This document shows positions 5,469 through 54,606 of a stretch of 54,958 bases of DNA, piece by piece. The notes under the pieces were generated by a model that was given only the letters and a program-made list of their open reading frames with translations, had not been told where the DNA came from and did not search any database. How positions within the stretch are numbered: position 1 is the first letter of the stretch; each line of letters begins with the position of its first letter. The DNA lies in contig JAHFHX010000006.1 in the NCBI GenBank assembly GCA_023246655.1, positions 1 to 54,958 of the forward strand. Reading direction: 5' to 3'. The position numbers and the translations under genes were made by a program. Source of the DNA: Candidatus Magasanikiibacteriota bacterium. GTDB lineage: Bacteria; Patescibacteriota; Patescibacteriia; Magasanikbacterales; GWA2-37-8.

Positions 5469-5543
5469 TGGAGCGGGTAAGGGGAGTCGAACCCCTGTCA
5501 CCAGTTTGGAAAACTGGGATAATAGCCGTTATATGATACCCGC
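5469..5543 (-). tRNA. tRNA-Gly(TCC)
   Basis: GCGGGTA...anticodon loop with TCC...GGTTCGACTCC...TACCCGCTCCA. Cloverleaf with encoded CCA. Confidence 0.95.
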
Positions 5544-5614
5544 AGTGAGTGAAAACGAAGTTAACTTCGGTTTTCCGAGCGAGGAATATTATATACTAGG
5601 TATATGATACCCGC
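5530..5614. repeat. 14-bp direct repeat duplicating the tRNA-Gly 5' end
   Basis: TATATGATACCCGC at 5530-5543 and 5601-5614. The spacer holds the palindrome GAAGTTAACTTC. Confidence 0.75.
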
Positions 5615-5640
5615 GGTGAAAGTCTAAAGTCTATAAAGTT

Positions 5641-5670
5641 CCCGCCACAGGCGGGTCCGCCTTTGGCGGA
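5641..5670. repeat. Tandem short GC-rich palindromes set in AAAGTC-type tandem repeats
   Basis: CCCGCC-ACA-GGCGGG immediately followed by TCCGCC-TTT-GGCGGA, flanked on both sides by (A/T)AAAGT(C/T) repeats. Confidence 0.75.
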
Positions 5671-5726
5671 GAAAGTCCATAAAGTTTTTAAAGTCCGAAT
5701 TGTTGTATTGCTCGTTATTTTAACGA

Positions 5727-6287
5727 TCACGCCCGAGCTGAATACTCGCCGGTTTCTGTATTTACCAAAACTTCTTCACCTTCTTTAATAAAAATCGGGG
5801 CTTGAATTTTAAGACCATTATCTAAAGCAATTTCTTTTGTCACATTGCCAGCGGCGGAATCTCCGCGTACTGCTGGGGGGGCTTCTACTACTTTGTACTG
5901 CACTTTCTTTGGCAACTGAATACTCACTGGCCTCCCTTCATAAAGACCGACAACAACATCTAAACCTTCTTTAAGATACTTGGCATCGTCACCAATTGAA
6001 TCCGCATCCATCTCAATTTGCTCATAGTTATTCATATTCATAAAAGCGTATCGCCCCTCAGTTTGATACAGATACTGCATGGTTTGAAATTGCACTTCAA
6101 CAATCTCTACTGACTCACCACTTTTATACGTAATTTCAATAACTTTTCCGGAAGCTAAATCCTTCATGCGGGTACGGGTAAACGCCGCTCCTTTACCAGG
6201 GTTAACGTGTTGAAACTCGACAACGACGTATAGGTTATTATTGTGCTTAATAACGGCTCCTTTGCGAATATCAGAAGTTGTAGACAT
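5727..6287 (-). CDS. efp: Translation elongation factor P
   Basis: HVNPGKGAAFTR loop (Lys at the modified position), YAFMNMNNYEQ, NGLKIQAPIFIKEGEEVLVNTETGEYSARA. Confidence 0.97.
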   Translation of the reverse strand: MSTTSDIRKGAVIKHNNNLYVVVEFQHVNPGKGAAFTRTRMKDLASGKVIEITYKSGESVEIVEVQFQTMQYLYQTEGRYAFMNMNNYEQIEMDADSIGDDAKYLKEGLDVVVGLYEGRPVSIQLPKKVQYKVVEAPPAVRGDSAAGNVTKEIALDNGLKIQAPIFIKEGEEVLVNTETGEYSARA

Positions 6288-6337
6288 AAACTAAATTAGC
6301 AATTATCAATGAGCAATTAACAACGCGGCTTACATTG

Positions 6338-7501
6338 TTAGTTGTTTATTGTTAATTGATCATTTACGCTTTGAAATATCACCTCATTAATATCTCTAGC
6401 GCCAGTAAATAATAGTATCATACGATCCACCCCTAAGGCAATACCTGCAGCCTTATCTGTCATTCCTAGCGCAGCCGAGGGATCTCGCGACGTCTTGGCC
6501 AAGCGAGACTTCTCCGCTACGCCGCGCCCTGTACCATACGGTACTGGGCTCCGCTCCGGTTGAAATGACAAATTGGCAGGGATGCCCGATTTAAGAGCGG
6601 CAATAAAGTCCTCGTCTACGGGCCAGGTCTCTTTGCCAAGTTGGTGACGCACAGCACGATCAACTTCCAAACGACGTTTTTGTTCATCAGAATCAGTCAA
6701 CTCACCAAATCCATTGCATATCTCAAGCCCACCAATATAACATTCCACGCGTTCAGCATAGCGTGGATCGTGATGGCAGAGGCGTGACAACGAGGCCATC
6801 TGAGCGGGATAATCATATAAAAACATTGGACGTTCGATGCCAAGGTGAGATTCGATCTCATTCAAAAAAATCTTAAAAAATATATCCTCATAGCTATCTT
6901 TATTACCTACCGAATATCCTCGACCTCGGGCTGTGTTACTCAATTGTTCAATTGTTAGATTGTTGTCTAAATCAACCCCAACATATTTTTCCCACACTTC
7001 TTTCATACTCATCCGCTCCCAGGTTTGGTTTACCTTTATCTCTTTATCTTTATACCTCAAGGTCTCAATTAACAATTCCTTTCCCACAAATTTAAATAAT
7101 TCTTCCATATCATCCATAAAATTCTGATACGTGCCCGGCGCACGATACCACTCAATCATGGTAAACTCAGGGTTATGTGTGCCACCAAAATCTTCATGAT
7201 TACGAAAACATTTACCGATCTCAAATACTTTGTTCCAACCAGCCGCCAATAGTTTCTTAAGGGCAAACTCCGGAGAAGTACGCAGGTAAAATCTATATTC
7301 ATCGCCGGTGGCGTGCGTTACCATTACCGGAAAAAAATGTAAATATGGCTCTTGGCTGGCAAAGCGAAGCGCGAGTGGTGTTTCAGCCTCCACAAATCCT
7401 TGTGACCAAAAAAATTCGCGGATCAGACGTACAATTTTAATTCTTTGATCAAAAATCTTTTTGAGGCGAGGGTTATGTTTGAGGTCGGACCAGGTGGACA
7501 T
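6338..7501 (-). CDS. epmA: EF-P lysine aminoacylase (GenX/PoxA) with a ~40-aa insertion
   Basis: LRTSPEFALKKLLAAG, FRNHE...HNPEFTMIEWY, EICNGFGEL, GIALGVDRM. No anticodon-binding domain; directly upstream of efp. Confidence 0.93.
   Translation of the reverse strand: MSTWSDLKHNPRLKKIFDQRIKIVRLIREFFWSQGFVEAETPLALRFASQEPYLHFFPVMVTHATGDEYRFYLRTSPEFALKKLLAAGWNKVFEIGKCFRNHEDFGGTHNPEFTMIEWYRAPGTYQNFMDDMEELFKFVGKELLIETLRYKDKEIKVNQTWERMSMKEVWEKYVGVDLDNNLTIEQLSNTARGRGYSVGNKDSYEDIFFKIFLNEIESHLGIERPMFLYDYPAQMASLSRLCHHDPRYAERVECYIGGLEICNGFGELTDSDEQKRRLEVDRAVRHQLGKETWPVDEDFIAALKSGIPANLSFQPERSPVPYGTGRGVAEKSRLAKTSRDPSAALGMTDKAAGIALGVDRMILLFTGARDINEVIFQSVNDQLTINN
6458..6570. mobile_element. Palindromic REP/MITE-like element inserted in frame in epmA
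   Basis: Ends TGTCATTCC...GAAATGACA are inverted repeats, with an internal hairpin GTACC-ATAC-GGTAC. Same end motif as the intergenic elements at 24759, 40850 and 48709. Confidence 0.8.
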
Positions 7502-24758: not shown

Positions 24759-24875
24759 TGTCATCGCGAGGAATCCCGAGCACTCGGGACGACGCGGCGA
24801 TCTCCCCATTTTAATAACGGCTCAAGTGAGGGGGATTGCTTCGTCGTCGCTGCCAAGCTCCTTCTCGCAATGACA
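24759..24875. mobile_element. Palindromic REP/MITE-like element
   Basis: TGTCATCGCGAG...CTCGCAATGACA terminal inverted repeats, internal CCCGAG-CA-CTCGGG hairpin and GCGATCTC/GGGATTGCT pairing. Confidence 0.85.
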
Positions 24876-40849: not shown

Positions 40850-40967
40850 TGCCATTCCGATGATACATTCGCTGCACTCAGTGCAGGCTCCGGAGGAATC
40901 TCTGTCTTGTCGTTTTGGCCAATTGGACAGAGATCCCTCACCCCTGCGATGGAGATTCGGGATGACA
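40850..40967. mobile_element. Palindromic REP/MITE-like element
   Basis: TGCCATTCCGA...TCGGGATGACA ends. Shares a 23-bp module (1 mismatch, inverted) with the element at 48709. Confidence 0.8.
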
Positions 40968-48571: not shown

Positions 48572-48708
48572 ATCCTTGAAAATTTCTAAGCTCTAATTAC
48601 TAATGTCTAATAAAATTTCCAATGATTAAATCCAAAATAGTATAGCAGATTTGTTGAATTAATCAAGATTACTATTGGTATTTATCTATTCAGTTTTTTC
48701 CAACCAAC

Positions 48709-48849
48709 TGTCATTTCGAGCGAAGTGAAGCCTCGCGGCGAAACGAAGTCGAGAAATCGCTTGACCGTTGAGTCGCAAGGGTCAAGGGATTCCTCCGCTC
48801 GCGGAGCCTGCACTGAGTGTAGCGAACGTGACGCTCGGTCGGAATGACA
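48709..48849. mobile_element. Palindromic REP/MITE-like element with extended flanking inverted repeat
   Basis: TGTCATTTCGA...TCGGAATGACA ends. Flanks 48683-48703 and 48851-48871 form a 21-bp inverted repeat with 1 mismatch. Confidence 0.85.
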
Positions 48850-48887
48850 ATTGGAAAAAACTGAACAGATACCACTGACTTGCCTAG

Positions 48888-50662: not shown

Positions 50663-50752
50663 ACGTGCACTTAATAAATTCCTGCATGCCACGAACATGC
50701 GAATTGCTCTCAAATATTAGTACTTATTTACTGTTAATTGTTATTTGAAATT

Positions 50753-53204: not shown

Positions 53205-54494
53205 ATGCAATTAGAAATTAAAAATCAGAAATCCAATACTCATAATACCGACATCGTTATTCTAGGCGCTGGTATTGGCGGCTACGAAACCTTTCGCGCT
53301 CTGGCTAAGTTGCTCCGGCGTTACCGTCTCAACAAACGTATTACCATTATTGATCAAAATAATTATTTTACTTTTATCCCACTACTTCATGAGGTGGCCT
53401 CGGGCGCAGTGGAACCAACGCATGCGGCCATGCCCTTACGCGAGTTGACCTATCGGACGCCGCATCGATTTCTAAAAGCAACGGTACAAAAAATTGATCC
53501 GGAGAAAAAAATTGTCACCACTGACCACGGTGAGATTAACTACGACTATGGTGTGATTGCCATGGGTAGTGCCGCAAATTATTATGGAGTACCCGGAGCA
53601 GAAAAATATTCCTATCACGTGCGGACCCTGGGTGGTGCAATGAGACTGCGGCATAATCTTATTGAAGCGCTCGAGGGTAGACAACAAAATATTACTCTTA
53701 CTGTGGTGGGAGGCGGCAATACCGGTGTAGAAGTGGCTGGACAGTTTGCCGATTTAATTACTCATGATCTTAAAAAGCTATACAGTGAAAAAAATTTGAC
53801 TCTCCGGCTTGTGCAAACCGGGCCAACATTAACGCCGCAACTTCCGCCCAAAGCCCAGCGCTATATTTGGCAACACCTGGAACGACACGGAGTTACCATT
53901 TTAGCGAACACGGCGGTTAAAGAAGTTAAACAGACATCCGTAGTAGTTGCTAGCACGGGCGGTTCTACTACTGCCCAAGAGCTTGCGAGCGATTTCACAA
54001 TCTGGTGCGCTGGATTTGGTAATATTGCACATTGCTTCTTTACGCAAGGGATGTGTACAACCGATCACCGGATACCCACCACCCCTTTTCTCCACCATCC
54101 AAGTTATCCAACCTTATATGCGGTTGGTGATATTGGATTAGTTCTAGATCGAACTACCGCCCAACCACTCCCTCAATTGGGCGAGGTAGCGTACCATGAA
54201 GGCCGCTATGTCGGCCACCAGATAGTGGCGCAGTTACGCAACAAAAAATTTCCACCATTCCGTTTTCGCTCCAAAGGTATTTTGATGCCTCTTGGCGAGC
54301 GTGACGGCTTGGGGATCATCGGCCCTTTTTTTATCACCGGAATTCTGGCGTGGTGGCTTCGACGCACGGTATACCTTTTATTTATGCCCGGAATTTTACG
54401 TAAACTCCGAATTGTAGTAGATTGGACCTTGCGCTTGTTTGGATTTAACTATATAATTGCAGTAGAGAGAAACCAACAAACAATTAACAAGTAA
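53205..54494 (+). CDS. ndh: Type II NADH dehydrogenase-like FAD-dependent oxidoreductase
   Basis: IVILGAGIGG, NNYFTFIPLLHEVASG, VVGGGNTGVEVAG, LYAVGD, PQLGEVAYHEG. Confidence 0.88.
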   Translation: MQLEIKNQKSNTHNTDIVILGAGIGGYETFRALAKLLRRYRLNKRITIIDQNNYFTFIPLLHEVASGAVEPTHAAMPLRELTYRTPHRFLKATVQKIDPEKKIVTTDHGEINYDYGVIAMGSAANYYGVPGAEKYSYHVRTLGGAMRLRHNLIEALEGRQQNITLTVVGGGNTGVEVAGQFADLITHDLKKLYSEKNLTLRLVQTGPTLTPQLPPKAQRYIWQHLERHGVTILANTAVKEVKQTSVVVASTGGSTTAQELASDFTIWCAGFGNIAHCFFTQGMCTTDHRIPTTPFLHHPSYPTLYAVGDIGLVLDRTTAQPLPQLGEVAYHEGRYVGHQIVAQLRNKKFPPFRFRSKGILMPLGERDGLGIIGPFFITGILAWWLRRTVYLLFMPGILRKLRIVVDWTLRLFGFNYIIAVERNQQTINK

Positions 54495-54606
54495 CAACTA
54501 ACAATCGAGCTGTCTTATTAGTTTGTTCATTATTAGTTGTTAATTTTTAATAAGGAAACTTTCCCGACTCAGTCAGGGATGAATTTCCTTGCGAAAGTAA
54601 ATTCAT

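What the first reader, a model, noticed from the sequence alone, without database searches (positions are those of the whole stretch)
6458..6570. Palindromic repeat element inserted in frame inside EpmA
Seen: about 40 extra residues (NLSFQPERSPVPYGTG...GMTDK) separate LKSGIPA from the motif-3 AAGIALGVDRM. The encoding DNA has the same TGTCAT...ATGACA ends as three intergenic elements, and the frame stays open. Established: Rickettsia palindromic elements insert in frame into proteins. Inference: an active element family adding new peptide sequence next to the active site of a translation-factor-modifying enzyme, or an RNA hairpin that is bypassed or removed.
Basis: partly seen in the sequence, partly recalled or inferred. 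Interest (0 to 1): 0.75.

Follow-up and report, generated by a model that had tools for sequence, protein, structure and literature searches.

The report
Palindromic repeat translated inside EpmA
A 123-base copy of a hairpin-forming selfish repeat that litters this tiny Patescibacteria genome sits in frame inside the gene for the enzyme EpmA, which modifies EF-P, and most likely adds a floppy 41-residue loop. It is a new example, in a new phylum, of what Rickettsia palindromic elements are known to do.

Summary
EpmA (6338-7501, minus strand, 387 aa) carries a 123-nt, 41-codon insert (6452-6574). Its core is a TGTCAT...ATGACA palindrome (6458-6570), five residues before the Ala that gates beta-lysine and ten before the motif-3 Arg.

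The closest relatives (68% and 66% identity) lack the insert.

It is one diverged copy (80% to its nearest relative) of about 90 such elements in a 1.13-Mb Candidatus Magasanikbacteria genome. Thirty-four copies lie in frame and stop-free inside long genes. None breaks a gene.

Each arm is a TGTC-tagged hairpin. That is the architecture of CGTC-tagged REPs, the class that includes Neisseria dRS3/NTS and Rickettsia RPE-4 and RPE-6. Four copies of the same bracket enclose a small GIY-YIG (Ssn-like) nuclease gene, so the EpmA insert looks like a version of that cassette without the nuclease gene.

EpmA looks functional:
- all conserved residues are kept;
- there is no rate acceleration;
- the AlphaFold core is confident and the insert is predicted disordered;
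- the host loop varies in length in 43 of 99 homologues.

Verdict: real, and a new member of a known kind.

The parts
6338..7501 (-). epmA (EF-P lysine aminoacylase, GenX/PoxA), 387 aa including the insert
   Evidence: TIGR00462 scores 322.9 bits against a cut-off of 286.9. PDB matches to 3g1z, 3a5y and 3a5z. AlphaFold model pLDDT 88.8; Foldseek to 3a5z_C gives TM 0.87.
6452..6574 (-). The inserted segment: 123 nt, codons 310-350 (NLSFQPERSPVPYGTGRGVAEKSRLAKTSRDPSAALGMTDK)
   Evidence: Absent from all close EpmAs. GC 57.7% against 41.6% for the rest of the gene. pLDDT below 50 for residues 317-342.
6458..6570 (.). Palindromic core TGTCAT...ATGACA (113 nt), a head-to-head pair of tagged hairpins
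   Evidence: Nearest genomic copy is C26:2965-3073 at 80% identity over the full length.
6458..6487 (+). Arm 1: TGTC tag, then the ATTCC...GGGAT stem, then the CTCG tail (TGTCATTCCTAGCGCAGCCGAGGGATCTCG)
   Evidence: Matches the published SRM search pattern exactly (pattern taken from PMC11893778).
6504..6570 (-). Arm 2: TGTC tag, then the ATTTC...GAGAAG stem, whose long loop holds an inner hairpin (6526-6549)
   Evidence: The inner hairpin GCCCTGTACCATACGGTACTGGGC is shared with copy C26:2965-3073.
6493..6501 (.). Central loop, the position that holds the GIY-YIG gene in the full cassettes
   Evidence: Comparison with the bracketed GIY-YIG loci; coordinates.
5727..6287 (-). efp, directly downstream of epmA; the PGKG loop lysine is present
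   Evidence: TIGR00038 scores 226.5 bits. Translation.
24759..24875 (.). Intergenic copy of the same family (CGCAATGACA subtype), abutting the stop codon of the upstream gene
40850..40967 (.). Intergenic copy with a degenerate left end (TGCCAT)
48709..48849 (.). Intergenic copy, itself nested in an outer 21-nt inverted repeat (48683-48703 / 48851-48871)
   Evidence: (I21).

Best explanation
The insert is a non-autonomous copy of a selfish palindromic repeat. It consists of two TGTC-tagged hairpins placed head to head. The same bracket encloses a ~100-aa GIY-YIG (Ssn-like) nuclease gene at four other places in this genome.

A copy landed in epmA after this lineage split from its closest sampled relatives. 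It survived for three reasons (inferred):
- the added DNA is a multiple of three;
- it has no stop codon in the reading frame;
- it sits in the loop just before motif 3, which tolerates extra residues throughout this clade.

It is therefore transcribed and translated with the gene. It gives EpmA a 41-residue hydrophilic, probably disordered loop, while the catalytic core and EF-P ligase function stay intact.

Shown: family membership, absence from relatives, the frame statistics, the conserved residues and the loop variability.

Inferred: that the insert is translated, that it is functionally neutral, and that the small nuclease moves the repeats.
For: - EpmA identity, insert boundaries and absence from relatives. 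No protein closer than 68% identity exists among 5.8 billion proteins.
- Repeat family: 96 candidate elements, 89 of good quality, in a 1.13-Mb genome. The conserved end is AAY|TGTCAT-YSC-GAG. In 162 of 192 arms a TGTC tag is followed by a perfect local stem of 5 bp or more that starts with AT. The EpmA copy is 80% identical over its full length to C26:2965-3073.
- Nuclease link: 8 GIY-YIG hits in the genome. Four small genes (three intact, one with a stop) lie exactly between TGTCAT...hairpin and hairpin...ATGACA.
- Translation rather than removal: 33 good copies plus EpmA lie in frame and stop-free inside open frames of at least 150 codons. The only three out-of-frame cases are gene ends, where the element supplies the last codons and the stop. 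An element has on average only 2.07 of 6 frames open.
- EpmA is not decaying. It keeps all 67 invariant columns of an 87-sequence alignment, including R100, E260, G353, G357, D359 and R360. Its p-distance to 84 outgroups is 0.360, against 0.358 and 0.378 for its sisters, and it has 2 private changes in 120 highly conserved columns, the same as its sisters.
- Structure: pLDDT 88.8, pTM 0.86, with residues 317-342 below 50. TM 0.87 to E. coli GenX in its complex with EF-P.
- Loop tolerance: 43 of 99 homologues exceed the 15-aa baseline at this loop, 18 of them by 7 aa or more and one by 43 aa.
- Another lineage's EpmA holds an 88-nt copy of the same family, in frame, at a different loop.
Against:
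- No strain with an empty site is available, so the time of insertion and any polymorphism are unknown.
- The insert ends five residues before the A298-equivalent selectivity residue, so an effect on catalysis cannot be excluded.
- No target-site duplication was seen, and no experiment links Ssn-type nucleases to mobility. The published role is in Neisseria transformation.
- The strict published SRM pattern is not enriched in this genome: 3 hits against 1-3 by chance.
- The EpmA copy fails my own strict test for a perfect 5-bp arm stem.
Confidence: 0.82

Rival explanations
1. The hairpin is removed from the mRNA, in the manner of an intron or by RNase processing and religation, or the ribosome hops over it. 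Mature EpmA would then lack the 41 residues.
For: The transcript segment folds very stably: -67.9 kcal/mol, z = -5.5. CPR bacteria are known to excise insertions from rRNA (my own knowledge, not checked here).
Against: All 34 intragenic copies keep the frame and lack stops, although only about a third of element frames are open. Excision or hopping would not require this. All three reading phases of the element are used, so no special take-off and landing context is conserved. No Rfam family matches. The fold is equally explained by hairpins that act at the DNA level.
Confidence: 0.05
2. epmA is a young pseudogene, or an enzyme crippled by the insertion, on its way to being lost.
For: The insert lies 5 aa from the substrate-gating Ala and 10 aa from the motif-3 Arg. 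No EpmB is found in the genome.
Against: The ORF is intact, and the TIGR00462 score is above its cut-off despite the insert. All invariant residues are kept and there is no rate acceleration relative to the sisters. The insert has diverged to 80% from its nearest copy without acquiring a stop or frameshift. Lack of EpmB is the rule in the family: 0 of 31 genomes score over the cut-off. The ssb-rpsR-epmA-efp gene order is kept as in relatives.
Confidence: 0.05
3. The insert has been co-opted: the extra loop now serves EpmA, for example in docking EF-P, gating the substrate or in regulation.
For: The same loop carries extra GC-rich residues in 43 of 99 homologues. It is close to the selectivity residue. 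EF-P in this organism differs at two E. coli identity positions (by-eye alignment).
Against: The extra segments are unrelated in sequence and length between lineages, and the nearest relatives have none. The insert is predicted disordered. The same family sits in dozens of unrelated enzymes, which argues for tolerance rather than function.
Confidence: 0.06
4. It is an assembly artefact: a repeat wrongly joined into epmA in a metagenome-assembled genome.
For: The genome is a 32-contig MAG rich in repeats.
Against: The EpmA copy is unique in sequence (its best other copy is 80% identical), so it cannot have been borrowed from another locus. Both junctions fall exactly at codon boundaries that restore a full-length EpmA. 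Independent assemblies of other Magasanikbacteria show the same kind of insert in EpmA.
Confidence: 0.02

Closest known systems
[quoted passage not shown] 2000, as summarised in PMC10969869; R. japonica genome paper PMC3767692)
   Same: - Palindromic repeats of about 70-150 bp, scattered through a small genome.
- A large fraction inserted in frame into unrelated housekeeping genes (UvrC, IleRS and other synthetases in both organisms).
- Encoded peptides lie in solvent-exposed regions.
- An ATGAC motif sits in the palindrome ends.
- Different elements are found at the same site in orthologues, which raises the same hotspot question.
   Different: - Different phylum (Patescibacteria rather than Alphaproteobacteria).
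- No sequence comparison with RPE consensus sequences was possible here.
- The hairpin loops are much longer.
- Copies carrying the nuclease gene coexist with the short ones in this genome.
- EpmA has not been reported as a host gene, as far as I could search.
CGTC-tagged REPs (Di Nocera et al. 2013, PMC3733652), which include Neisseria dRS3 and R. conorii RPE-4 and RPE-6
   Same: - An unpaired CGTC tag, 'changed to TGTC' in many repeats.
- Stems start with A-T.
- Mostly head-to-head dimers.
- A short unpaired tail.
- Some copies lie inside coding regions.
- No transposase gene is associated.
   Different: - Published stems are 8-9 bp with 4-5-nt loops. Here the median loop is 21 nt and often holds a further hairpin.
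- The tail is CTC(TG), not CCA.
- Patescibacteria were not among the five phyla listed.
Ssn nucleases with NTS/SRM hairpin repeats (Chenal et al. 2025, PMC11893778)
   Same: - The repeat-nuclease-repeat architecture, with a single-domain ~100-aa GIY-YIG protein.
- The GTCAT-stem...stem-ATCYxG layout of the hairpin.
- Arm 1 of the EpmA insert fits the published SRM pattern exactly.
   Different: - In N. meningitidis only 2% of NTS lie inside genes. Here about 38% of copies do.
- The strict SRM pattern is not enriched in this genome.
- Membership of the nuclease in cd10448 and its ssDNA cleavage are untested.
- The published function is control of transformation, not mobility.
Bacterial MITEs that make in-frame fusions (ERIC, BOX, Coxiella QMITE1, Anabaena MITEs; review PMC10969869)
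   Same: Short, gene-less, inverted-repeat elements that sometimes contribute codons to host genes.
   Different: No target-site duplication was detected. No transposase-encoding parent exists; the only coding partner is a small nuclease.

Membership tests
EpmA (EF-P--(R)-beta-lysine ligase, TIGR00462) | Scores above the curated family cut-off | tested here: met
   322.9 bits against a cut-off of 286.9, in two stretches split by the insert.
EpmA (EF-P--(R)-beta-lysine ligase, TIGR00462) | Class II catalytic core without an anticodon-binding domain; motif-3 GxxxLGxDR and the Ala equivalent to E. coli A298 | tested here: met
   Aligned to 3g1z/3a5y. A355, G357, D359 and R360 are conserved. Fold match to 3a5z_C with TM 0.87. 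Role of A298 taken from bioRxiv 10.64898/2026.07.07.736966. The one-residue numbering offset to the PDB chain is my assumption.
EpmA (EF-P--(R)-beta-lysine ligase, TIGR00462) | Partner genes: efp with the target lysine, and epmB to supply beta-lysine | tested here: inconclusive
   efp is adjacent and has PGKG. No EpmB was found in this genome, or above the cut-off in 30 relatives.
Rickettsia palindromic elements (RPE) | Repeated palindromic element inserted in frame in many unrelated protein genes | tested here: met
   34 in-frame copies and none disruptive.
Rickettsia palindromic elements (RPE) | Insert located in a solvent-exposed, structurally tolerant region | tested here: inconclusive
   Predicted disordered, in a loop that varies in length.
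Rickettsia palindromic elements (RPE) | Sequence similarity to a defined RPE family consensus | not tested
   No RPE sequences were at hand. Only the shared ATGAC / CGTC-type tag reported in PMC3767692 and PMC3733652 links them.
Rickettsia palindromic elements (RPE) | Insert retained in mRNA and protein | not testable with these tools
CGTC-tagged REP superfamily | Unpaired CGTC or TGTC tag at one end, stem beginning with A-T | tested here: met
   T .96, G .99, T .99, C .99, A 1.00 and T 1.00 over 192 ends. The local stem starts right after the tag in 162 of 192 arms.
CGTC-tagged REP superfamily | Stem of 8-9 bp with a 4-5-nt loop | tested here: not met
   Median loop is 21 nt, range 5-59. Arm 1 of the EpmA insert has a loop of about 12 nt and arm 2 a loop of about 47 nt.
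CGTC-tagged REP superfamily | Predominantly head-to-head dimers | tested here: met
   Every TGTCAT...ATGACA unit is a head-to-head pair.
Ssn-related motif (SRM) with Ssn nuclease | Matches the pattern HGTCWYN(0-2)YYVSBRHN(0-5)WNVSBRGN(0-2)RNCYNB | tested here: inconclusive
   EpmA arm 6458-6487 matches. Genome-wide there are only 3 hits against 1-3 in simulated genomes, because the loops here are longer than the pattern allows.
Ssn-related motif (SRM) with Ssn nuclease | Repeats flank a single-domain GIY-YIG gene on both sides | tested here: met
   C7:18355, C7:63895, C16:46326 and the decayed C2:123932.
Ssn-related motif (SRM) with Ssn nuclease | Nuclease belongs to cd10448 and cuts ssDNA next to its hairpin | not testable with these tools
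   Only a PF01541 hit. No NCBIfam family and no close PDB entry.
MITE | Terminal inverted repeats plus a target-site duplication | tested here: not met
   Terminal inverted repeats are present, but flanking positions show only a weak AAY preference and no duplicated pair.

The most novel reading that the evidence does not exclude
The loop before motif 3 of EpmA may be a preferred landing or exchange site for several unrelated GC-rich palindromic repeats across Magasanikbacteria, rather than merely a tolerant spot. On this reading the repeats are aimed at a DNA feature of the conserved motif-3 coding sequence. Alternatively, the added loops may retune substrate gating beside the A298-equivalent residue, in a clade that has EpmA but no recognisable EpmB.
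Probability: 0.1. Interest if true: 0.6.

Novelty: new member of a known kind. Interest (0 to 1): 0.4.

Why it matters
- It shows that the Rickettsia-style habit of writing selfish palindromes into essential proteins also operates in ultra-small Patescibacteria.
- Here it does so with repeats built on the same tagged-hairpin plan as dRS3/NTS and RPE-4/RPE-6.
- It places gene-less copies beside copies that carry a small GIY-YIG nuclease, which bears on what moves this repeat class; Di Nocera et al. found no dedicated transposase for it.
- For EpmA, it marks a loop five residues from the beta-lysine gate that accepts more than 40 extra residues. That is useful for anyone engineering the enzyme.
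- It warns annotators that spurious-looking peptides (CHPE..., VIPSE..., ...LGMT, ...ARDD) inside CPR proteins are repeat-derived.

Tried and rejected
- Rfam: no family matches the insert.
- Strict SRM pattern: not enriched genome-wide, so I do not file the family as SRM by that criterion.
- Target-site duplication: none visible in 96 elements.
- '100% identical copies' as proof of recent jumps: rejected. The identical 138-139-nt copies share identical flanks and belong to a larger dispersed repeat of about 230-270 bp.
- Three apparently out-of-frame intragenic copies turned out to be gene ends.
- The hairpin nature of the extra loop residues in four other EpmAs is not significant (z from -0.25 to -2.1). 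Only their GC enrichment holds.
- Nuclease naming: no NCBIfam model and no close PDB entry.
- The scan of all genomes for a 17-nt end motif hit many phyla. About 280 chance hits are expected in 596 Gb by my own estimate, so only loci with several copies count as evidence.
- The AlphaFold model gives no coordinates, so the distance of the loop from the EF-P interface could not be measured.

Full report
**What is there**

The window holds, on the minus strand, an operon-like run: ssb, rpsR, epmA (6338-7501) and efp (5727-6287). The 387-aa product is EpmA: TIGR00462 scores 322.9 bits against a cut-off of 286.9, and efp scores 226.5 bits on TIGR00038.

Against the solved Salmonella and E. coli enzymes, the alignment runs to residue 308/309, breaks, and resumes at residue 351 with AAGIALGVDR, the motif-3 strand. 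The missing stretch is NLSFQ...GMTDK: 41 residues, 123 nt, window 6452-6574. Its core is TGTCAT...ATGACA at exactly 6458-6570.

The insert has 57.7% GC in a gene of 41.6% GC. Without it the gene is 1041 nt, the size of its relatives. The transcript strand folds at -67.9 kcal/mol, z = -5.5.

**Not ancestral**

Record titles of the nearest loci place the organism in Candidatus Magasanikbacteria (Patescibacteria). The closest EpmAs, at 68% and 66% identity, and about 20 further relatives have no such segment. No closer protein exists in a 5.8-billion-protein collection. The time of insertion can only be bounded as after the split from a relative at 68% identity.

**A genome-wide family**

The whole genome is 1.126 Mb in 32 contigs, 44.7% GC and 96.8% complete. 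It has 96 candidate TGTCAT...ATGACA units, 89 of them of good quality. The ends are nearly invariant (TGTCAT, then YSC-GAG) with only a weak AAY preference outside and no target-site duplication.

In 162 of 192 arms the TGTC tag is followed at once by a stem starting with AT. That stem pairs locally with GNRAT, and a tail of CTC(TG) or C(T/C)CCC follows. The median loop is 21 nt. Each unit is thus a head-to-head pair of tagged hairpins.

The EpmA copy is diverged. Its best match is C26:2965-3073 at 80% over the full length, sharing the inner hairpin GCCCTGTACCATACGGTACTGGGC. It fails my strict test for a perfect 5-bp stem.

The window's three intergenic copies are at 24759-24875, 40850-40967 (left end TGCCAT) and 48709-48849.

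The end motif is patchy among relatives. It occurs 122 times here and 0-66 times in 30 related genomes, and 12 of the 31 genomes searched, this one included, have none.

**Link to a small nuclease**

The genome has eight GIY-YIG hits, one of which is UvrC. Four small genes lie exactly between a TGTCAT...hairpin and a hairpin...ATGACA: C7:18355, C7:63895 and C16:46326 are intact, and C2:123932 carries a stop. The short elements, including the EpmA insert, look like the same bracket with the gene replaced by a short loop (6493-6501 in EpmA).

This was a lead from earlier notes of this scan, and I verified it here. The proteins match no NCBIfam model and no close PDB entry.

**Is it translated?**

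I looked for copies inside genes without assuming a frame, by requiring at least 70 open codons on both flanks on one strand. Apart from pairings attributable to a chance-open alternative or antisense frame, every such element was in frame and stop-free, except three. In those three the upstream gene simply ends a few codons into the element, which supplies its last residues and stop codon, and the next gene follows.

With a 30-codon flank threshold, 33 good copies plus EpmA lie in frame in long open frames and none breaks a gene. By eye, not checked with a family search, the hosts include PurH, LeuRS, IleRS, UvrA, UvrB, UvrC, CarB, GatB and the ATP synthase gamma subunit.

Elements are not intrinsically open. 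On average 2.07 of 6 frames lack a stop (1.54 for shuffled elements, 1.73 for random genomic segments of the same length), and one frame per strand is closed by the terminal TGA. All three reading phases are used: 18, 9 and 6 copies.

If the hairpin were cut out of the mRNA or hopped over, neither the length nor the stop content would be constrained, and about two thirds of copies would be out of frame. The pattern is what purifying selection on translated inserts gives. This is strong indirect evidence.

**Is EpmA still an enzyme?**

- The protein keeps all 67 invariant columns of an 87-sequence alignment, among them R100, E260, N263, G353, G357, D359 and R360.
- Its mean p-distance to 84 outgroup EpmAs is 0.360, against 0.358 and 0.378 for its two sisters.
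- It has 2 private changes in 120 columns that are at least 95% conserved, the same as the sisters.
- AlphaFold2 with that alignment gives pLDDT 88.8 and pTM 0.86. Only residues 317-342 fall below 50, and the motif-3 strand and helix are confident.
- The model matches E. coli GenX in its EF-P complex at TM 0.87, rmsd 2.3 Å.
- The insert peptide is hydrophilic, rich in S, P, R, G, A, K and T.

**How close to the active site, and why tolerated?**

By the alignment, and assuming a one-residue tag offset in the PDB chain, A355 corresponds to E. coli A298. A recent preprint calls A298 the backbone-selectivity gate for beta- versus alpha-lysine. The insert ends at K350, five residues before A355 and ten before the motif-3 Arg. 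'Next to the active site' is therefore right in sequence terms.

This loop is nevertheless the most length-variable spot of the enzyme in the clade. Among 99 homologues with both anchor motifs, 56 have the 15-residue baseline and 43 are longer. Eighteen are longer by 7 residues or more, and one (P0061) by 43. In the four examples I fetched, the extra DNA is GC-enriched relative to its gene (0.53-0.68 against 0.38-0.49), although not significantly hairpin-forming.

Other EpmA loops also take inserts. P0089, from another lineage, carries a clean 88-nt TGTCAT...ATGACA element of the same family, in frame, near residue 155.

I could not measure distances to EF-P or the adenylate, because the model's coordinates are not exposed.

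**Comparison with what is known**

Three bodies of literature meet here.

1. Rickettsia palindromic elements. These are repeats of about 150 bp in ten families, roughly half of them in frame in unrelated genes (review PMC10969869). [quoted passage not shown] It leaves the hotspot question open.
2. Di Nocera et al. 2013. They define CGTC-tagged REPs: the tag is often TGTC, stems start with AT, head-to-head dimers predominate, some copies lie within ORFs, and no transposase is associated. They equate CGTC-1 and CGTC-4 with dRS3, RPE-6 and RPE-4.
3. Chenal et al. 2025. They show that dRS3/NTS-type hairpins (SRM) flank, and are cut as ssDNA by, small GIY-YIG Ssn nucleases. They note that NTS-ssnA-NTS looks like an insertion sequence and that only 2% of NTS are intragenic in N. 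meningitidis.

The elements here share the tag, the AT start, the head-to-head layout and the bracketed nuclease. They differ in their much longer, structured loops, in their tail, in the phylum, and in having about 38% of copies inside genes.

The published SRM pattern matches arm 1 of the EpmA insert (6458-6487). It is not enriched genome-wide: 3 hits against 1-3 by chance. I therefore treat 'works like an SRM/CGTC REP dimer' as well supported and strict membership as unproven.

**Verdict**

It is one more case, in a new host gene and a new phylum, of a known phenomenon. The bypass/removal alternative is disfavoured. Earlier agents of this scan reached similar conclusions for other genes of this genome and for epmA of another genome. 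I used those notes only as leads and re-derived the points cited above.

The residual novelty lies in two places. One is the recurrent use of the pre-motif-3 loop across the clade. The other is the side-by-side presence of nuclease-bearing and gene-less brackets.

Noticed in passing
whole genome G000 and 30 relatives: EpmA and efp are present, but no EpmB (TIGR03821) is found in this 96.8%-complete genome. None of 31 family or order genomes scores over the cut-off, and only five have KamA-like hits (E 1e-45 to 1e-65). The beta-lysine gate Ala is nevertheless conserved, so the acyl donor of EpmA in this clade is unclear.
   Followed up: partly
window 5727-6287 (efp): By eye, the EF-P acceptor loop reads QHVNPGKG against E. 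coli EFVKPGKG. The target Lys and Gly are kept. The positions of the E. coli identity elements F29 and K31 (PMC3950694) are His and Asn.
   Followed up: no
G000 C2:41056-41194, C2:94125-94263, C4:2898-3035, C7:95756-95893, C13:41293-41431, C16:40612-40750: A 138-139-nt TGTCAT element is nested in a larger dispersed repeat of about 230-270 bp, 95-100% identical at six or more loci and with identical flanks. This looks like a composite unit that has spread recently.
   Followed up: partly
G000 C3:8148-8283, C13:72091-72178, C20:8611-8735: Elements lying between consecutive genes donate the last 3-11 codons and the stop codon of the upstream gene. By eye, two of those upstream genes are SufC-like and Pth-like.
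   Followed up: partly
L093:563-650 (protein P0089): The EpmA of another Magasanikbacteria lineage carries an 88-nt element of the same family, in frame, at a different loop (peptide CHSESPIRGEESLSQSTSGQRSLAVARDD).
   Followed up: yes
window 48683-48703 and 48851-48871: The intergenic copy at 48709-48849 sits inside an outer 21-nt inverted repeat that is 95% complementary. The tail ATGACAATTGG recurs at 40962 and 48844. This suggests insertion into, or association with, a second palindrome family.
   Followed up: no
window 5545-5700: Between a tRNA gene (5472-5543, minus strand) and efp lie further GC-rich hairpins, including CCGCCTTTGGCGG, a module also found inside the 139-nt elements.
   Followed up: no
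window 6334-6358 and 54481-54505 (also 50716-50747): An AT-rich 25-nt inverted repeat (92%) built of TTGTTA-like units overlaps the stop codon of epmA and the few bases beyond it.
   Followed up: no
loci L094-L173 (genome-contig scan): The 17-nt end motif TGTCATYCCGAGCGAGS occurs in MAGs labelled Acidobacteriota, Planctomycetota, Omnitrophota, Gemmatimonadota, Bacteroidota, Chloroflexota, Clostridia and Patescibacteria. Some loci hold 2-4 copies or inverted pairs. Single hits could be chance in a 596-Gb collection.
   Followed up: no
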